Positions 366 through 7,833 of a stretch of 64,000 nucleotides of DNA are shown piece after piece. Both the position numbers and the translations under genes were made by a program. The first letter of the stretch is position 1, and each line of letters begins with the position of its first letter. The stretch comes from Escherichia phage ST2. The notes beneath the pieces were generated by a model. The model made no database searches. It was not told the origin of the DNA and saw only the letters and a program-made list of their open reading frames with translations. The stretch lies in the sequence record OM982647, one strand, 5' to 3'.

Positions 366-481
366 TTTAAATTCTCAATTCGAGATAATATTTAGTAGCC
401 ACGTTCGTCTGAATTTCACCTTCTTTCGACAAGTCTCTCAGTTGTAGGCTACCGCTTAGAAGAGTGTTCTCTTCATATAGT

Positions 482-489
482 TATTTATA
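482..489 (-). promoter_or_regulatory. T4-type late promoter core TATAAATA (minus strand) upstream of rIII
   Basis: plus-strand tatttata = TATAAATA on minus strand, adjacent to gene 31 stop. Confidence 0.4.
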
Positions 490-822
490 TCACTTATAAA
501 GACACGGAATAGCTTTATAGTGGCATGTTACGAATTTCTGTTTAATTTCTTTAGGTTGTTTAAGTCCCAAAGCCACAAATGGATGTGGAACATTTCGAAT
601 TTGTCCAACTGGTAGTGGAGTCAAATCACCGACTTCAACAAAACCTTCAGGAACATCAGGACCTACAGAATGAACTACACATAGTTCAGGAACTTCACCT
701 TGAACACGTTTACCAATCACAAGTCCTGATTCGGTAACTTCTTCATCACCTGCTTGAGCGGGTTCAGAAACCAGAATAACATATTCACCAACAGCACGAA
801 TTGGGAGTTGTACTTCAGACAT
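490..822 (-). CDS. 31: gp31 head-assembly co-chaperonin (GroES-like)
   Basis: 110-aa translation [28 protein letters not shown]... matches recalled T4 gp31 nearly throughout. Confidence 0.9.
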
Positions 823-879
823 CTTATTTCCTTGTTGTTTGACGATAGATTAATAATACCATACTATTCGTAAAGCATA

Positions 880-1188
880 TTACATAAGAAGCAAACGTTC
901 AACCGGAGTACCATCAACCGAAATTACTTTATCAAGGCGGAAAGAACGCCACTGACCTAACTCGGTATCGAATGCTCGAACTGATTCACGAGGTTCATAA
1001 CGAACTTCTGTTGCCGGATTGTTATTTTCATATTTGACTTCAAGTTCATCGCGCGAAGCAAACATAGTGCGTACCTCGCCGTTAGCCTTTTCAAATACAA
1101 CACAATGAACGCCTACAGACAGAATAGTTTTAATACGTTCACGAAGAACCATAGTTTCTTGTTCAGTTAAAATCATATTATTCACCAC
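880..1188 (-). CDS. hypothetical early protein (31.1-like position)
   Basis: 102-aa ORF between gene 31 and cd; tight packing, same strand. Confidence 0.45.
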   Translation of the reverse strand: MVNNMILTEQETMVLRERIKTILSVGVHCVVFEKANGEVRTMFASRDELEVKYENNNPATEVRYEPRESVRAFDTELGQWRSFRLDKVISVDGTPVERLLLM

Positions 1189-1759
1189 AAAAGTTTCGAA
1201 TTTGTTCCCAATTCAGAGAACGAAGATTATTACGAGAGTACTGAATTACTTCAATACCAGCTTGTTTTAGAATGTCGGCCCAATTTTCAGGAGATCTGTC
1301 ATATAATTCTGCGTATACAACCTTTTTAATACCTGACTGCGTAATAGCTTTAGTGCAATCAGGACACGGAGAAAGCGTAGTATATAACGTAGCACCTTCA
1401 ATAGAATTACCTTTACGAGCTGCAAACAAAATTGCATTCAATTCCGCATGGATTTCATTATTAGCAGACCATGCACTATGAGCGGCCCGATGTTCTTTAG
1501 CCAAAACAAAATTATCCACCCGTCCAAATGCTGTAGTGCCTTCTTTATGCCCAGCAACGATGACCGGGCTTGGTTTATTCTTCAACCAACCGTTTTCGGA
1601 TGCATGTTCGCAACAGTTTGTACCACCTGAAGGAGAGCCATTATAACCTGTAGAAATAATGCGTCCATCTTTTTCAATGACGGCACCAACTTTCCATGAA
1701 CAACATTTTGATTCTTGAGAAATCAGATATGCAATCTGAAGGTATGTGCTAGCTTTCAT
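1178..1759 (-). CDS. cd: dCMP deaminase
   Basis: 193 aa with cytidine/dCMP deaminase zinc motifs HAE...PCPDC (EIHAELNAI...SPCPDC); T4 cd position. Confidence 0.9.
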   Translation of the reverse strand: MKASTYLQIAYLISQESKCCSWKVGAVIEKDGRIISTGYNGSPSGGTNCCEHASENGWLKNKPSPVIVAGHKEGTTAFGRVDNFVLAKEHRAAHSAWSANNEIHAELNAILFAARKGNSIEGATLYTTLSPCPDCTKAITQSGIKKVVYAELYDRSPENWADILKQAGIEVIQYSRNNLRSLNWEQIRNFCGE

Positions 1760-2751
1760 TATTGAACCTTATTAATATAAGTTAACAGCTCTTTAGTTTG
1801 TTCCCAACTGATGCACGCATCGGTAATGGAAACGCCATAGGACATATTATCAGAAATTTTTTGATTTCCTTCATGTAGGAATGATTCTATCATAATTCCT
1901 TTGACCAAATCATTAGCTGCTAAATTTTTACCAATACCAATTTGATTGCTATAATGCCCATCAGCGTTTGCATGGCTACAGTCAACCATTACATAATGAT
2001 TCAGACCTACTGCCCTTGCTTTGTTAGAAGCTTCTTGAATATCAGAAGAATGATAGTTCGGGCCGTTGGTCCCGCCACGCAATACGATATGCGTATTCTG
2101 ATTACCTTCAGCTTCAACAATGCCTACAGTACCATCGACGTCCATACCCATATACCGATGAGGCCAGGCGGCACTATACATCGCGTCTGTAGCTACTTTA
2201 ATAGAACCATTGGTTGCGTTCTTGAAGCCTACGCACATCGGTAGACCTGAAGCAATTTCACGATGTGTCTGACTTTCAGTCGTACGGGCGCCAATAGCAA
2301 CCCATGAGAAAATACCAGAAAGATACTTAATCGTGAATGGGTCTAATACTTCAGTTGCTAATGGAAGTCCCATACGTAGAAGTTTACGACACAATGTTCG
2401 TGCAACTATAAGACCGTGGTTCATATCAAAACTTCCGTCAAGATATGGATCATTTACAAGACCTTTCCAACCTACGGTAGTTCGAGGCTTTTCAAAATAA
2501 ACGCGCATCACTAACAGAACATTAGGAAGACGAGTTTGAAGTTCAGCCAGACGTTTGCCGTATTCAACAGCAGCAATAGGGTCATGAATTGAACAAGGAC
2601 CTACAACAATAAGTTTGCGTGGGTCTTCACCATTCATAATCGAATTAACTTGTTCGCGATGAGAAGCCACTTGTGATGCGTAAGCTTCCGACAAAGGAAT
2701 AATCTCAGCCAGTTCTTTTGGAGAAATAAGTTTTCCGACGACAGGTAACAT
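1759..2751 (-). CDS. 3-deoxy-D-arabino-heptulosonate-7-phosphate (DAHP) synthase, class I alpha (AroG/AroF-like)
   Basis: 330 aa; LIVVGPCSIHD, VMRVYFEKPRTTVGWKGL, IGARTTESQ(T)HRE, GFKN motifs align with recalled E. coli AroG over the whole length. Confidence 0.85.
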   Translation of the reverse strand: MLPVVGKLISPKELAEIIPLSEAYASQVASHREQVNSIMNGEDPRKLIVVGPCSIHDPIAAVEYGKRLAELQTRLPNVLLVMRVYFEKPRTTVGWKGLVNDPYLDGSFDMNHGLIVARTLCRKLLRMGLPLATEVLDPFTIKYLSGIFSWVAIGARTTESQTHREIASGLPMCVGFKNATNGSIKVATDAMYSAAWPHRYMGMDVDGTVGIVEAEGNQNTHIVLRGGTNGPNYHSSDIQEASNKARAVGLNHYVMVDCSHANADGHYSNQIGIGKNLAANDLVKGIMIESFLHEGNQKISDNMSYGVSITDACISWEQTKELLTYINKVQ

Positions 2752-2871
2752 AACAATCCTTAGGAGATATAAACAGATTCTGATTCAACAATACCTTTAA
2801 CCGGATTAGACAGGCTAAGTTGGTAGTGCTCAGATTTATGACCATTCTCGATAGTAATTAGATAGCTCTCA

Positions 2872-3108
2872 TTATAGTGTTCCATATACTCGAGTTGCTT
2901 CAACAAGACCATCACTGCCTAATTTAAGATTAGTAATTTGGTCACCATCTTTAGGATTAACGATTATGAGAAAAGAACGTGGAGATTCTTGAATAACTCG
3001 TAATGTTGCATCCTGGAAACGTTCAGATACTTTATTAATCAAAGTCTGAGCGAACTCTTTTACTTTAACATGAAATTCTTGAAGCGTGATAGGTTTTTCA
3101 CTTAACAT
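2872..3108 (-). CDS. hypothetical small early protein
   Basis: 78-aa ORF in compact minus-strand early gene array. Confidence 0.4.
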   Translation of the reverse strand: MLSEKPITLQEFHVKVKEFAQTLINKVSERFQDATLRVIQESPRSFLIIVNPKDGDQITNLKLGSDGLVEATRVYGTL

Positions 3109-3167
3109 TCTGTTTTCCTCATTGTGTTGGTAGAGTCATAGTATCACAACTCCACCATGTTGTAAAC

Positions 3168-3443
3168 TTAAATTGCAAAACATTTAATTTCTTGTGAATC
3201 GAAATCAACTTCGCACTGAATTACTAGTTCAGCATCAAGTCCAAACACAACAATCACATGAGCCGAGCTGGGCAACAGTGTAACAGACACAGAATCCACT
3301 TGGTCAGGCACCAGCGTATTCAAAACGTAGAGTAGTTCAGAGTGGATCTTAAGCTCGGTAGCCGTGTCCAGCTTATCAAAGAAATGATTTGCGATAATCT
3401 GACTAAAAACGACCTTTACAATTTCAGAATATTTAGGGAACAT
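3168..3443 (-). CDS. hypothetical small early protein
   Basis: 91-aa ORF, same strand array. Confidence 0.4.
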   Translation of the reverse strand: MFPKYSEIVKVVFSQIIANHFFDKLDTATELKIHSELLYVLNTLVPDQVDSVSVTLLPSSAHVIVVFGLDAELVIQCEVDFDSQEIKCFAI

Positions 3444-3450
3444 AATTACC

Positions 3451-3675
3451 TCAGTGTACAGTATTTACTTTAACTCGAACAACAAATTGCTCGGTCGGTT
3501 CGCCTACAGGAACAAACTCTACATGATATTCGCCTTTGTAACGAGTATTCAGGTCGTTACGAATTTCGGTAAGCTTGTTGATTAATGTAGAACTCATATT
3601 AAGTCCCACTAGTTTACGAAGCATTTTGTATGCTTCATCTTCGATTTCATGATGTTTATCGCACATAGTTTTCAT
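3451..3675 (-). CDS. hypothetical small early protein
   Basis: 74-aa ORF, same strand array. Confidence 0.4.
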   Translation of the reverse strand: MKTMCDKHHEIEDEAYKMLRKLVGLNMSSTLINKLTEIRNDLNTRYKGEYHVEFVPVGEPTEQFVVRVKVNTVH

Positions 3676-3846
3676 TTAACCATTCAATTGCCTGGTCGAC
3701 GTTATCAAATATACCACCGTCCAAACGTTCTTCATACTCATAGTCCAGCACATCAATACCGAACTGTCCATTTACTAAAGGCCAGGCTACAAACAAATAT
3801 TCTTTATGCTGTTCGATGGCCTCAATCACTTCATATAATCGTTTCA

Positions 3847-3847
<1 letters not shown>
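3656..3847 (-). CDS. hypothetical small early protein
   Basis: 63-aa ORF abutting pseT start. Confidence 0.35.
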
Positions 3848-4933
<1,086 letters not shown>

Positions 4934-4934
<1 letters not shown>

Positions 4935-5233
4935 TATTTTATTCCTAAGAAAGTTTCAAGAATACGAATGTTATGCTCGCGCCGGTCTTTATTAATTTCA
5001 GCAACGTTTTTATTAATTGACGTACTTCTAACGTTTGAAGAAATAAATTTAATCATATGACTTTTGAGTTGTTGCAAATCCAACCCTTTTTCTTTAGCAG
5101 CTTTACGAAGAGCTTTACCTGCTTCATCTAGTGCCTTTGCTGCATCTTTATCATAATTGCCAAGTGACATTCCACGGCAGATATCAATATACTCATCCGA
5201 CCGTTTGATGTAATTCTCTAGTAATGTTTTCAT
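4934..5233 (-). CDS. hypothetical protein
   Basis: 99-aa ORF; promoter-like element upstream. Confidence 0.4.
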
Positions 5234-5290
5234 TTAGATTTCCTCAATTATCCATAGGAGCATTATACTCTGCTCCCGAGAGTTTGTAAA

Positions 5291-5515
5291 CTATTTTACT
5301 AAAGATTCAATATACTCATGAAGAGCTTTAGTCGCTACTGCCCACTTATTCTGATATTCATTTTTCAGATTAGCACGAGACTGAACTAACAAGCGGTCAT
5401 TAGTCGGAGGCAAAGATTCTAATCGTTGAATCTGGCGCCCATAAATCATAGCCGCCATTTCAGATTCATAGATAAGCCCTTTAATGTATTCATGCTGTTC
5501 TTTAGTCATTGGCAT
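5291..5515 (-). CDS. hypothetical protein
   Basis: 74-aa ORF. Confidence 0.4.
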   Translation of the reverse strand: MPMTKEQHEYIKGLIYESEMAAMIYGRQIQRLESLPPTNDRLLVQSRANLKNEYQNKWAVATKALHEYIESLVK

Positions 5516-5796
5516 TTTTCCTCTTTTAAACCACTACGATAATAACATATCATAGTCTTCTGGTCATGTACATATCTTTTTACGTCATTTAACCAGATAC
5601 GAAATTCTTGAGAGTCTTCAAACGGCATTCCAACCCATGGATTACCATCAATAACCTTTACTTGCCATTTCTGGTTATATTCAACAATAGATTCAGGCCA
5701 TGACGGATGTAAAGTTTCTTTAGGGCTTAAGGGCACATCCTGGGCACATCCAGCCAAAATGCCAATAGATAATACAACTGCGGTTAATTTAATCAT
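5506..5796 (-). CDS. putative o-spanin (outer-membrane lipoprotein)
   Basis: 96 aa with signal peptide and lipobox LAGC; immediately downstream of and overlapping (ATGA) the i-spanin-like ORF; T4 pseT.2 position. Confidence 0.55.
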   Translation of the reverse strand: MIKLTAVVLSIGILAGCAQDVPLSPKETLHPSWPESIVEYNQKWQVKVIDGNPWVGMPFEDSQEFRIWLNDVKRYVHDQKTMICYYRSGLKEEKCQ

Positions 5797-6149
5797 TCTG
5801 AGAGCTTCCTGAGGTCTTCTGCAAAGGAATCGAAGGACTTGTTGATTTGTTTTTCGACCAATCCTGGTTTACTTGCCACCACGTTCTTCTTCTTCGAATC
5901 CTTACGGAGCTTTTCATTTTCGGCCTTAAGTTGGTCAACTAAAACACGGTTCTTATAAGTCATTTCTTCGATTGACTGATATTGAACCTTGAAGTCGTCT
6001 AATACTTTAGCATTGTTTTTAGCGGTCTCTTTGACAGAAGCTAATTCAGTATTCAACGAATCAACTTTGTTGTTTAAGACAACTATTGTTACCGTAGAAA
6101 CTAGAGCAAAAGCTGCTACTATAGCATAAATCGGATTTACTTTAAGCAT
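5793..6149 (-). CDS. putative i-spanin (inner-membrane anchored, coiled-coil periplasmic domain)
   Basis: 118 aa; N-terminal TM helix IYAIVAAFALVSTVTIVVL then charged coiled-coil-like region; T4 pseT.3 position next to alc. Confidence 0.55.
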   Translation of the reverse strand: MLKVNPIYAIVAAFALVSTVTIVVLNNKVDSLNTELASVKETAKNNAKVLDDFKVQYQSIEEMTYKNRVLVDQLKAENEKLRKDSKKKNVVASKPGLVEKQINKSFDSFAEDLRKLSE

Positions 6150-6637
6150 GTTTTAATAATCTCAATGATTTCATCTCGGGATAATCCATTGATAAGAACG
6201 GTTTTCAAACCATCACACTGGATTTTGTACGATTCAAACAATACACACAACTCTTCTGCTGTATGATACGGACTTGAAATTCCGAGGCGGTTGAATTTGT
6301 CGGTAAGAGGGTCGCAAATAATGTAGAATTTTATACCTGCGATATGTACGTTTGGTTGACTAATATTAATGAACACATTAGCGTCATATTTAGTCAAATT
6401 GTTTTGAAGAAATTCTACCATGGCATTAACTGCTTCCGGCATTGCTTCACGTTTCTCTTCAGCGTATCGGGTGGAATACTCTTTTTGTTTTACTTTCTTT
6501 TTAAGATTTTTGGCCAGTGTAACACGTAGGTCAGTAAGATAACCAACTGGACGTCCTTTCTTAAAGACCCGGATTCCGTCAGTTGTATCTCCAAAAGCGG
6601 TTACGACCATATCGTTAGTAATCAATTGCATATTCAT
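6137..6637 (-). CDS. alc: Alc-like protein (blocks transcription of unmodified cytosine DNA)
   Basis: position between spanins and rnlA as in T4; start chosen at internal Met (MNMQLIT...) giving 166 aa, close to T4 Alc (167 aa); the track ORF extends to 6700. Confidence 0.6.
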   Translation of the reverse strand: MNMQLITNDMVVTAFGDTTDGIRVFKKGRPVGYLTDLRVTLAKNLKKKVKQKEYSTRYAEEKREAMPEAVNAMVEFLQNNLTKYDANVFINISQPNVHIAGIKFYIICDPLTDKFNRLGISSPYHTAEELCVLFESYKIQCDGLKTVLINGLSRDEIIEIIKTCLK

Positions 6638-6699
6638 AATTTTCTCCTCGTGTTGTTGATAAAAGCCATAGTAACACCTTCCTTGGTGTTTGTAAACCA

Positions 6700-7833
<1,134 letters not shown>

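What the first reader, a model, noticed from the sequence alone, without database searches (positions are those of the whole stretch)
1759..2751. Phage-encoded class I DAHP synthase (AroG-like) adjacent to dCMP deaminase
A full-length 330-aa ORF carries the hallmark DAHP synthase motifs (GPCSIHD, KPRTTVGWKGL, IGARTTESQ) and aligns end to end with bacterial AroG/AroF/AroH. It sits in the cd.x interval where T4 has only small ORFs. This looks like an auxiliary metabolic gene for the first committed step of the shikimate/aromatic pathway; a divergent stretch (about residues 245-275, MVDCSHANADGHYSNQIGIGKNLAAND) relative to E. coli AroG could affect regulation or substrate handling.
Basis: partly seen in the sequence, partly recalled or inferred. 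Interest (0 to 1): 0.6.

Follow-up and report, generated by a model that had tools for sequence, protein, structure and literature searches.

The report
Phage DAHP synthase, regulatory pocket rebuilt
A T4-like E. coli phage carries an intact copy of the enzyme that opens the aromatic-compound (shikimate) pathway; the gene is already annotated in public phage genomes, but its feedback-control pocket has been specifically rewritten, so it probably runs without the host's normal brake.

Summary
Window 1759-2751 (minus strand) encodes a 330-aa type I-alpha DAHP synthase between pseT and cd, where T4 has only cd.1-cd.5. It is not new. The protein is 100% identical to one in phage PhAPEC2 and is annotated in many GenBank/RefSeq records. 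It belongs to PHROG 5045 (AMG category), and two genome papers list it as a putative AMG. I found no experimental work on it.

All metal, PEP and E4P-phosphate ligands are conserved in 29/29 phage-clade proteins. The model superposes on solved DAH7PS structures (TM 0.96). Between-genus dN/dS is 0.14-0.22. The phage clade is monophyletic, AroF-like and syntenic in five or more Straboviridae genera. RB69 lacks the gene.

The added finding concerns regulation. Of 101 columns conserved in both phage and cellular enzymes, only five are fixed differently: Q151K, D155G, S180P, F209Y and T223A (AroG numbering). All lie in or beside the aromatic-amino-acid inhibitor pocket. The N-terminus is also 8-10 residues shorter.

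The most likely reading is an early-expressed, catalytically normal DAHP synthase that escapes Tyr/Phe/Trp feedback. Interest is modest.

The parts
1759..2751 (-). CDS of a 330-aa type I-alpha DAHP synthase (AroF-like; phrog_5045)
   Evidence: ORF. Pfam and NCBIfam matches; PHROG match. Best PDB sequence match is AroF 6AGM at 7e-105. AF2 model has pLDDT 93.5, and Foldseek gives TM 0.96.
2757..2761 (-). Shine-Dalgarno AAGGA, 5 nt upstream of the ATG at 2751
   Evidence: Read directly from the sequence.
1757..1761 (-). TAATG: the DAHPS stop codon (1761-1759) overlaps the cd start codon (1759-1757). Translational coupling is inferred.
   Evidence: Sequence; ORF coordinates.
3138..3166 (-). Early-promoter-like site (TTTACA-17-TACTAT with an upstream TG). 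It is orthologous to the T4 early promoter between cd.3 and cd.2 and would drive cd.2 -> 41-aa ORF -> DAHPS -> cd.
   Evidence: Promoter scan. The T4 sequence and its misc_feature align almost base for base. Function is inferred by homology, not shown.
2593..2595 (-). Codon for Cys53 (AroG Cys61), a metal ligand. The other metal ligands are His260 (1972-1974), Glu289 (1885-1887) and Asp311 (1819-1821).
   Evidence: Invariant in 29/29 phage-clade and 98/98 cellular homologues.
2314..2328 (-). Codons for Lys142 to Gly146. K142 replaces the inhibitor-contacting AroG Q151 / AroF Q152, and G146 replaces D155/D156. Ile141 (2329-2331) replaces P150.
   Evidence: residue roles from PMC9529685 and PMC5791370.
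2239..2241 (-). Codon for Pro171, which replaces the inhibitor-contacting AroG S180 / AroF S181
   Evidence: P in 29/29 phage-clade proteins against S in 96/98 cellular ones. S180F is the classic feedback-resistant variant.
2110..2154 (-). Beta6a/beta6b hairpin region, including Tyr200 (AroG F209), Gly202 (AroG S211 / AroF G212) and Ala214 (AroG T223)
   Evidence: strands E198-203 and E209-214.
1178..1759 (-). cd, dCMP deaminase (193 aa), the downstream neighbour
   Evidence: Pfam dCMP_cyt_deam_1 at 1.7e-26; annotated as cd in related records.
2872..3108 (-). cd.2 homologue (DUF7320, phrog_1504), first gene of the early unit
2760..2885 (-). 41-aa ORF (phrog_15876) between cd.2 and DAHPS
   Evidence: Match at 1.9e-32; annotated only in phage AV116.

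Best explanation
The gene encodes a catalytically competent type I-alpha DAHP synthase that condenses PEP and erythrose-4-phosphate into DAHP. It derives from an AroF-like gammaproteobacterial enzyme, captured once by an ancestor of several enterobacterial T4-like phage genera and kept at one genomic position, between pseT and cd.

It is transcribed from the early promoter upstream of cd.2 and is translationally coupled to cd, so it is made early with the nucleotide-metabolism genes.

Its active site is unchanged. The aromatic-amino-acid inhibitor pocket has been rewritten (Q151K, D155G, S180P, F209Y, T223A, P150I in AroG numbering), and the first 8-10 N-terminal residues that complete that pocket are missing. 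The enzyme should therefore no longer be shut off by Tyr, Phe or Trp. It would keep carbon flowing into the shikimate/chorismate pathway in infected cells, even in amino-acid-rich surroundings where the host's own AroF/G/H are inhibited and repressed.

Shown: identity, fold, conserved catalytic residues, the pocket substitutions and their conservation, synteny and purifying selection.
Inferred: enzyme activity, loss of feedback, early expression, and the benefit to the phage (aromatic amino acids versus chorismate-derived cofactors such as folate or quinones).
For: Family and fold:
- Pfam, TIGR00034 and PRK12755 scores are above their cutoffs.
- The best PDB sequence match is E. coli AroF at 7e-105.
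- The AF2 model has pLDDT 93.5 and matches solved DAH7PS structures with TM 0.96 and rmsd 1.3 A.

Catalysis: Cys/His/Glu/Asp metal ligands, the Arg/Lys PEP ligands and the KPRTT motif are identical in 29/29 phage-clade proteins.

Selection: between-genus dN/dS is 0.14-0.22, similar to cd and pseT.

Regulatory pocket:
- An unbiased scan found only 5 fixed differences among 101 doubly conserved columns.
- 4 of those 5 fall on the 7 literature-named pocket positions in that set (P = 4e-5).
- None of 98 cellular homologues has K at Q151, and 1 of 98 has P at S180.
- There are 48-52 residues before the catalytic Cys in the phage clade, against at least 58 in cellular enzymes.
- Literature: Q151/Q152 and S180/S181 bind the inhibitor main chain; S180F and P150L are feedback-resistant; D155 forms a stabilising salt bridge (PMC9529685).
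- Literature: Tyr-insensitive AroF arises by replacing Gln152 or Pro148 or deleting Ile11 (PMC5791370).
- Control: other viral-contig DAHPS copies keep the canonical pocket.

Phage ownership and expression:
- GC3 is 0.29 against 0.50-0.57 for host aroF/G/H.
- There is a Shine-Dalgarno site and a TAATG overlap with cd.
- The upstream promoter is orthologous to a T4 early promoter.

Synteny holds in Kanagawavirus, Marfavirus, Winklervirus, Bragavirus and an uncultured T4-like contig.
Against: - No enzyme assay or inhibition data exist for any member that I could find.
- The substituted pocket residues are themselves highly conserved in the phage clade: 13/15 positions against 40% of all columns. 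That fits a pocket that still does something (another ligand, or the dimer interface) at least as well as simple loss of regulation.
- Other pocket residues are retained: D146, the AroF-type Pro at 147, L179, and the Tyr-type Gly at 211.
- None of the natural substitutions (K, P, G, Y, A) is the exact change tested in the mutagenesis literature.
- The gene is dispensable. RB69 and about 10 other records lack it.
- Within Mosigvirus, polymorphism is 12 non-synonymous to 4 synonymous codons. The counts are small and the time-scale short.
Confidence: 0.6

Rival explanations
1. It is an ordinary Tyr-regulated AroF-type DAHP synthase. It simply adds enzyme dosage and remains feedback-inhibited like the host enzyme.
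For: Its closest relatives are AroF-type enzymes. It keeps the Gly at the position that distinguishes Tyr- from Phe-type enzymes, the AroF-type Pro at 147, D146 and L179. It also keeps the beta6a/beta6b hairpin that forms the regulatory site.
Against: The two residues that hold the inhibitor main chain (Q151/152 and S180/181) are replaced in 29/29 phage proteins, while cellular enzymes keep Q in 98/98 and S in 96/98. D155 is lost and the N-terminal segment is missing. Replacement of Gln152 or deletion of Ile11 alone makes AroF Tyr-insensitive.
Confidence: 0.13
2. The allosteric pocket has been retuned rather than lost. It now binds a different effector, plausibly anionic given the net gain of positive charge, and so couples shikimate-pathway entry to some infection-specific metabolite.
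For: - The new pocket residues are fixed across a clade that has diverged to about 56% identity (K 28/29, P 29/29, G 28/29, Y 29/29, A 29/29).
- The pocket is more conserved than the protein overall (P = 2e-4).
- The charge shift comes from gaining Lys and losing D155 and the N-terminal segment. That the lost segment is acidic (AroG Asp6/Asp7) is my recollection of Shumilin et al. 2002, not checked here.
- The gene sits beside dTMP-pathway genes in T4-like phages (cd), and beside thymidylate kinase in an unrelated 262-kb viral contig.
Against: The pocket lies at the tight-dimer interface, so its conservation may be structural. No candidate ligand is indicated by any result. Adjacency in T4-like early regions is weak evidence for functional linkage.
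Confidence: 0.17
3. The protein has a different catalytic role (for example KDO8P-like condensation with arabinose-5-phosphate or another aldose phosphate), or a non-catalytic role such as a PEP sink or a binding partner for a host protein.
For: The DAHPS and KDO8PS families are homologous, and the phiC120 paper mentions lipopolysaccharide loosely. Mosigviruses carry unusual sugar-modified DNA (from my own knowledge, not tested here).
Against: All E4P-phosphate and PEP ligands and the DAHPS-type KPRTT motif are invariant. The protein is 51% identical to AroF over its full length. No fixed difference maps to the active site. RB69, an arabinosyl-hmC phage by my recollection, lacks the gene.
Confidence: 0.05
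4. It is a decaying or neutral passenger gene in this particular phage genus, retained by hitch-hiking in a recombination block.
For: - Among five Mosigvirus alleles there are 12 non-synonymous and 4 synonymous polymorphic codons, and pairwise dN/dS is 0.5-1.2.
- The gene lies in a ~1.3-kb low-divergence mosaic block.
- RB69-type phages lack it.
Against: - All 212 tblastn hits cover at least 80% of the protein, and every copy I translated is intact.
- No catalytic or pocket residue is polymorphic.
- Long-term dN/dS is 0.14-0.22.
- dN/dS is known to be inflated at very short divergence (dS = 0.013).
Confidence: 0.05

Closest known systems
E. coli AroF (Tyr-sensitive type I-alpha DAHP synthase; PDB 6AGL/6AGM)
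   Same: It is 51% identical along the full length. It has the same metal, PEP and E4P ligands, the same (beta/alpha)8 barrel with the beta6a/beta6b hairpin, Gly at the Tyr-type specificity position, and Pro at position 148. It falls in the sister group in the tree.
   Different: It is 26 residues shorter: about 9 at each end, a 5-residue deletion after helix alpha7 and a 3-residue deletion before the last strand. Q152K, D156G, S181P, F210Y, T224A and P151I are fixed in the phage clade. GC3 is 0.29 against 0.50.
Engineered or selected feedback-resistant DAHP synthases (AroG S180F, P150L, D146N; AroF Q152I, P148L, delta-Ile11)
   Same: The same positions are altered: 150, 151/152, 180/181 and the N-terminal segment. 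The catalytic core is untouched.
   Different: The natural substitutions are different residues (K, P, G, I). Several occur together and are evolutionarily fixed. Their effect has not been measured.
PHROG 5045 and GenBank/RefSeq 'phospho-2-dehydro-3-deoxyheptonate aldolase' of Straboviridae (PhAPEC2, phiC120 ORF64, Klebsiella phage KLB31, F48, X20, PM2)
   Same: The window protein is a member. It is 100% identical to the PhAPEC2 protein, scores 2.8e-182 against phrog_5045, and shares the pseT-cd synteny. It has already been proposed as an AMG.
   Different: Nothing differs. This is the same gene family. Published mentions are annotation-level only.
Other virus-associated DAHP synthases in IMG/VR (giant-virus MAG contigs and others)
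   Same: They belong to the same enzyme family and their catalytic residues are intact.
   Different: They are 41-52% identical and keep the canonical pocket residues (PQDSFGT or near variants). Only L026/L027 share S180P and F209Y.

Membership tests
Type I-alpha DAHP synthase (Pfam PF00793 / TIGR00034 aroFGH) | Profile match above the curated cutoff over the full domain | tested here: met
   PF00793 scores 252.6 bits (cutoff 25.5). TIGR00034 scores 427.9 bits (cutoff 173.2). NF009395 scores 455.3 bits (cutoff 343).
Type I-alpha DAHP synthase (Pfam PF00793 / TIGR00034 aroFGH) | Metal-binding tetrad Cys-His-Glu-Asp (AroG C61, H268, E302, D326) | tested here: met
   C53, H260, E289 and D311 are invariant in 29/29 phage-clade proteins.
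Type I-alpha DAHP synthase (Pfam PF00793 / TIGR00034 aroFGH) | PEP ligands (R92, K97, R165, K186, R234) and the KPRT(T/S) E4P-phosphate motif | tested here: met
   R83, K88, R156, K177, R225 and K88-P-R-T-T92 are all invariant.
Type I-alpha DAHP synthase (Pfam PF00793 / TIGR00034 aroFGH) | (beta/alpha)8 barrel with an N-terminal extension and an inserted beta6a/beta6b hairpin | tested here: met
   The AF2 model gives TM 0.96 and rmsd 1.3 A to 4HSO/1GG1/1KFL. The hairpin strands are at 198-203 and 209-214. The N-terminal extension is present but 8-10 residues shorter.
Type I-alpha DAHP synthase (Pfam PF00793 / TIGR00034 aroFGH) | Catalysis of PEP + E4P -> DAHP + Pi | not testable with these tools
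   Needs an enzyme assay or complementation of an aroF aroG aroH triple mutant.
Feedback-regulated isozymes AroF / AroG / AroH | Canonical aromatic-amino-acid inhibitor pocket (Q151, S180, D155, P150, F209 and the N-terminal segment of the neighbouring subunit) | tested here: not met
   K142, P171, G146, I141 and Y200 replace them in 28-29 of 29 phage proteins. The first 8-10 residues are absent.
Feedback-regulated isozymes AroF / AroG / AroH | Score above the isozyme-specific NCBIfam cutoffs (AroG NF006723, AroH NF009396) | tested here: not met
   AroG model: 363 bits against a cutoff of 568. AroH model: 387 bits against a cutoff of 463. No AroF-specific equivalog model was returned. The tree places the clade next to AroF-type enzymes.
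Phage auxiliary metabolic gene (AMG) | A host-type metabolic gene encoded inside a bona fide phage genome, with phage-like composition and expression signals | tested here: met
   The window is 98% identical to Mosigvirus genomes. GC3 is 0.29, like cd and pseT. There is a Shine-Dalgarno site, a TAATG overlap with cd and an orthologous T4 early promoter. phrog_5045 is in the AMG category.
Phage auxiliary metabolic gene (AMG) | Expression during infection and an effect on host metabolism | not testable with these tools
   Needs infection transcriptomics or proteomics and metabolomics, comparing wild type with a deletion mutant.

The most novel reading that the evidence does not exclude
The rebuilt pocket is not a dead regulatory site but a new one. 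The phage enzyme would be allosterically controlled by a non-aromatic, probably anionic, infection-specific metabolite (for example a nucleotide or a folate/chorismate-branch intermediate). That would link entry into the shikimate pathway to the phage's early nucleotide-synthesis programme.
Probability: 0.12. Interest if true: 0.6.

Novelty: already known. Interest (0 to 1): 0.3.

Why it matters
DAHP synthase sets how much carbon enters the shikimate pathway, and it is normally throttled by Tyr, Phe and Trp. A widespread, conserved phage copy whose only lineage-specific fixed changes sit in the inhibitor pocket would be a natural counterpart of the feedback-resistant enzymes that metabolic engineers build by mutagenesis. 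It would also suggest that enterobacterial T4-like phages actively deregulate aromatic/chorismate supply during infection, an AMG class so far discussed mainly for marine viruses. The prediction can be tested directly with one purified protein. It could provide a ready-made deregulated DAHPS for strain engineering, and it poses a clear question: which chorismate-derived product limits phage yield? The gene itself is already catalogued, so the value lies in the regulatory hypothesis rather than in the discovery of the gene.

Tried and rejected
- Host contamination or a recent capture from E. coli was rejected. Identity to AroF/G/H is only 44-51%. The nearest cellular hits (51-55%) come from mixed phyla. 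GC3 is 0.29 against 0.50-0.57. The phage clade is monophyletic at 100/100 bootstraps.

It is helix alpha7, which varies in all isozymes, plus a 5-residue deletion. No fixed-difference column lies there.

- A link to arabinosyl-hmC DNA modification in Mosigvirus was considered from memory and rejected. RB69 lacks the gene, and the enzyme keeps its E4P-type motifs.

- I first thought the very low synonymous divergence of DAHPS within Mosigvirus (dS 0.013 against 0.16 for cd) signalled a special sweep. The sliding-window comparison shows it is one of several near-identical blocks in a mosaic region. It is therefore not peculiar to this gene.

- I tried to obtain many Mosigvirus alleles from IMG/VR and got only two. 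Within-genus dN/dS stays underpowered.

- AF2 coordinates are not exposed to scripts. I could not measure pocket geometry or spatial clustering and relied on literature residue roles instead.

- Literature searches for experimental work on phage DAHPS found only annotation-level mentions.

- BLASTP found no similarity between the 41-aa ORF and cd.2. Only a weak profile hit exists.
Full report
**1. Observation**

The window holds an ORF at 1759..2751 on the minus strand. It is 330 aa and starts at the first ATG after an in-frame stop. The ORF matches Pfam DAHP_synth_1 (4e-75). It also matches NCBIfam TIGR00034 aroFGH (428 bits, cutoff 173) and PRK12755 (455 bits, cutoff 343). It falls below the AroG- and AroH-specific cutoffs.

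The neighbours are:
- dCMP deaminase, 1178..1759; its start codon overlaps the DAHPS stop as TAATG
- a cd.2 homologue (DUF7320), 2872..3108
- polynucleotide kinase pseT, 3847..4746
- the gp31 co-chaperonin, 490..822

T4 has only the small ORFs cd.1-cd.5 in this interval. The only slip is that the quoted 'divergent stretch' is residues 255-281, not 245-275.

**2. Provenance and prior knowledge**

The first 6 kb of the window are 96-98% identical to many Mosigvirus-type Escherichia/Shigella phages, including ChristianSchoenbein, PhAPEC2 and phiC120. The protein is 100% identical to the PhAPEC2 product. It is annotated in GenBank/RefSeq as phospho-2-dehydro-3-deoxyheptonate aldolase, DAHP synthase or 'aroF'.

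PHROGs v4 already holds the family (phrog_5045, category 'moron, auxiliary metabolic gene and host takeover', 2.8e-182). Two genome papers mention it:
- phiC120 ORF 64, as a DAHP synthetase domain (PMC8022965)
- Klebsiella Kanagawavirus KLB31, as a proposed amino-acid AMG (PMC11845039)

Six literature searches found no biochemical or genetic study. The library searched does not cover subscription journals.

**3. Distribution, origin and evolution**

tblastn finds the gene in 212 phage records:

| Identity to window protein | Records or hosts |
|---|---|
| >=97.9% | 139 Escherichia/Shigella records |
| 77% | Enterobacter Entb_45, Edwardsiella PEi26 (Kanagawavirus) |
| 67-70% | Klebsiella F48 (Marfavirus), Serratia X20 (Winklervirus), Erwinia |
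| 58-59% | Proteus (Bragavirus) |

In each of these genera the gene lies between pseT and cd, with 0-2 small ORFs intervening. The same holds on an uncultured T4-like contig carrying the divergent member P0020.

T4 lacks the gene. So does RB69, the type Mosigvirus, where cd abuts cd.2. Only 11 records have that gene-less junction. The gene is therefore common but dispensable.

In a search of 5.8 billion proteins, the first ~24 hits are phage-type proteins of 319-343 aa. Below them come cellular enzymes of 341-385 aa at only 51-55% identity, from mixed phyla. A spot check shows the best of these (P0024) has bacterial neighbours.

A neighbour-joining tree recovers the 29 phage-clade sequences as monophyletic in 100/100 bootstraps. 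The sister group includes E. coli AroF and Pasteurellaceae enzymes. GC3 is 0.29, like cd (0.26) and pseT (0.33), and unlike host aroF/G/H (0.50-0.57). Together these results indicate one old capture of an AroF-like gene, followed by vertical descent and recombinational spread, with occasional loss.

Between genera dN/dS is 0.14-0.22, in the range of cd and pseT.

Within Mosigvirus the gene sits in a ~1.3-kb near-identical block (about 3016-1742), bounded by divergent patches. This is one of several such blocks in a mosaic region. Five alleles show 12 non-synonymous and 4 synonymous polymorphic codons, none at catalytic or pocket positions. At dS = 0.013 this is too shallow to interpret.

**4. 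Is the enzyme intact?**

Alignment with E. coli AroF, AroG and AroH, taken from MG1655, gives 51, 47 and 44% identity.

The following equivalents are invariant in all 29 phage-clade proteins. I assigned the residue roles from my knowledge of the AroG structures.

| Role | AroG residues | Window-protein residues |
|---|---|---|
| Metal ligands | C61, H268, E302, D326 | C53, H260, E289, D311 |
| PEP ligands | R92, K97, R165, K186, R234 | R83, K88, R156, K177, R225 |
| E4P-phosphate motif | K97-P-R-T-T101 | K88-P-R-T-T92 |

An AlphaFold2 model built on a 58-sequence alignment has mean pLDDT 93.5 and pTM 0.92. It superposes on solved type I-alpha DAH7PS structures (N. meningitidis 4HSO, E. coli 1GG1 and 1KFL) with TM 0.96 and rmsd 1.3-1.5 A. 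The model retains the beta6a/beta6b hairpin. Nothing suggests a pseudo-enzyme or a change of substrate.

**5. What is different**

I split a 127-sequence alignment into 29 phage-clade and 98 cellular proteins. I then listed every column conserved at >=90% in both groups. In 96 columns the residue is the same. Only 5 columns are fixed for different residues:

| AroG position | Phage residue | Phage clade | Cellular homologues |
|---|---|---|---|
| Q151 | K142 | K 28/29 | Q 98/98 |
| D155 | G146 | G 28/29 | D 96/98 |
| S180 | P171 | P 29/29 | S 96/98 |
| F209 | Y200 | Y 29/29 | F 98/98 |
| T223 | A214 | A 29/29 | T 98/98 |

P150 is also replaced by Ile in 28/29 phage proteins.

The review PMC9529685 documents the roles of these positions:
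- Q151/Q152 and S180/S181 contact the main chain of the bound Phe or Tyr.
- D155/D156 makes a salt bridge that stabilises the site.
- S180F, P150L, F209A/S and V221A are feedback-resistant variants.

Four of the five fixed differences fall on the seven literature-named pocket positions among the 101 columns (hypergeometric P = 4e-5). T223 is two residues from V221.

The phage proteins have 48-52 residues before the catalytic Cys, against at least 58 in every cellular homologue. They therefore lack the first 8-10 residues. In AroF, deletion of Ile11 or replacement of Gln152 or Pro148 gives Tyr-insensitive enzyme (PMC5791370; PMC10729320). In AroG, by my recollection of Shumilin et al. 2002 (not checked here), Asp6 and Asp7 of the neighbouring subunit complete the Phe site.

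As a control, most of the 67 DAHPS copies recovered from IMG/VR contigs, largely giant-virus MAGs, keep the canonical pocket pattern. Only the T4-like clade carries I-K-G-P-Y-G-A.

**6. Expression signals**

An AAGGA Shine-Dalgarno lies 5 nt before the ATG, and the stop codon overlaps the cd start. A sigma-70-like site at 3166..3138 (TTTACA-17-TACTAT with TG) aligns almost base for base with the T4 sequence carrying the annotated early promoter between cd.3 and cd.2. No late-promoter TATAAATA lies upstream of the gene.

I infer that the gene is part of an early transcription unit: cd.2, the 41-aa ORF, DAHPS, then cd.

**7. Mechanism**

The best-supported reading is a catalytically normal DAHP synthase, made early in infection, whose aromatic-amino-acid feedback site has been disabled or repurposed.

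[quoted passage not shown] An insensitive phage enzyme would therefore keep DAHP and chorismate synthesis going regardless of amino-acid supply.

None of my results discriminates among the possible beneficiaries: aromatic residues for phage protein, or chorismate-derived folate, quinones or siderophore. The recurrent adjacency to dTMP-pathway genes (cd here, thymidylate kinase on the unrelated contig L026) is only suggestive of a folate link.

One caveat applies. The new pocket residues are themselves more conserved than the protein at large (13/15 against 40% of columns, P = 2e-4). This fits a retuned site or a constrained dimer interface as well as it fits a locked-open site.

**8. Comparison and verdict**

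The protein meets every sequence and fold criterion of type I-alpha DAHP synthase. It fails the criterion of a canonical Tyr/Phe/Trp pocket. In the altered positions it resembles engineered feedback-resistant AroG and AroF.

The gene itself is already known: it is identical to deposited sequences, belongs to a PHROG family and has been flagged as an AMG. The analysis adds a specific, statistically supported and directly testable hypothesis about its regulation. Interest is therefore modest (0.3).

Noticed in passing
window 2760-2885 (-): A 41-aa ORF (MEHYNESYLITIENGH...) lies between cd.2 and DAHPS. It matches phrog_15876 (1.9e-32) and, weakly, the C-terminal half of the cd.2 family phrog_1504 (1.8e-5). 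BLASTP finds no similarity to the adjacent cd.2 protein. Among the records I inspected it is annotated only in phage AV116. It may be a remnant of the recombination that placed DAHPS here.
   Followed up: partly
window ~1517-1741, 3017-3460, 3900-4500 compared with L011, L012, L014, L015: The region shows a strongly mosaic divergence pattern among Mosigvirus genomes. Blocks with 0-4 mismatches per 150 nt alternate with patches of 24-56 mismatches per 150 nt. These patches include the 5' part of cd, the cd.3/cd.2 area and, in AV116, the 3' half of pseT. DAHPS lies in a ~1.3-kb near-identical block.
   Followed up: partly
L010 (RB69) 6743-7503, compared with window 1178-3108: RB69, the type Mosigvirus, lacks the DAHPS gene: cd abuts cd.2. 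Its annotated cd is 169 aa, against 193 aa here and in T4. Only 11 phage records share this gene-less junction.
   Followed up: partly
L026 (IMGVR_UViG_3300028829_003504, 262-kb contig) 2956-4005, and L027: A second viral DAHPS lineage is 49% identical and carries a partly similar pocket (Q151N, D155H, S180P, F209Y, T223S). It shares the one-residue 'GGTNGPNY' insertion. It is flanked by a topoisomerase-IB-like protein and a thymidylate kinase. Its relation to the T4-like clade is unresolved (37% bootstrap). It could be a deep branch or a case of convergence.
   Followed up: partly
L031-L088 (IMG/VR GVMAG contigs): Dozens of giant-virus metagenome-assembled contigs carry a type I-alpha DAHPS at 41-47% identity, with canonical catalytic and allosteric residues. 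I did not examine whether these are truly viral or come from contaminating cellular DNA.
   Followed up: no
window 1759-2751, alleles in L011, L012, L014, L015: Among five Mosigvirus alleles there are 12 non-synonymous and 4 synonymous polymorphic codons (for example G6R, W196R, R246S, V248L, H266Y, S315G). The adjacent cd gene has dN/dS 0.03-0.04. The sample is too shallow to distinguish relaxed selection from unpurged polymorphism.
   Followed up: partly
window 880-1188 (-) and public records L005, L011, L012, L004: There are annotation inconsistencies in public records. The gp31.1 homologue (WYL_2 / SH3 barrel) is labelled 'tail fibers protein' in several genomes. cd is labelled 'ribD' in phi25-307 and 'tRNA-specific adenosine deaminase' in Entb_45. 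The DAHPS gene is 'hypothetical protein' in the original PhAPEC2 and phiC120 entries and 'DHAP synthase class 1' in PECP20.
   Followed up: no
L093 (Logan SRR28261677 contig, 29 kb) 477-7598: An uncultured T4-like phage carries the most divergent syntenic DAHPS (P0020; R at Q151 and N at D155). In this phage frd (DHFR) and td (thymidylate synthase) lie just upstream of rnlA-alc-pseT-DAHPS-cd, which clusters the folate and dTMP genes within 6 kb of DAHPS.
   Followed up: no
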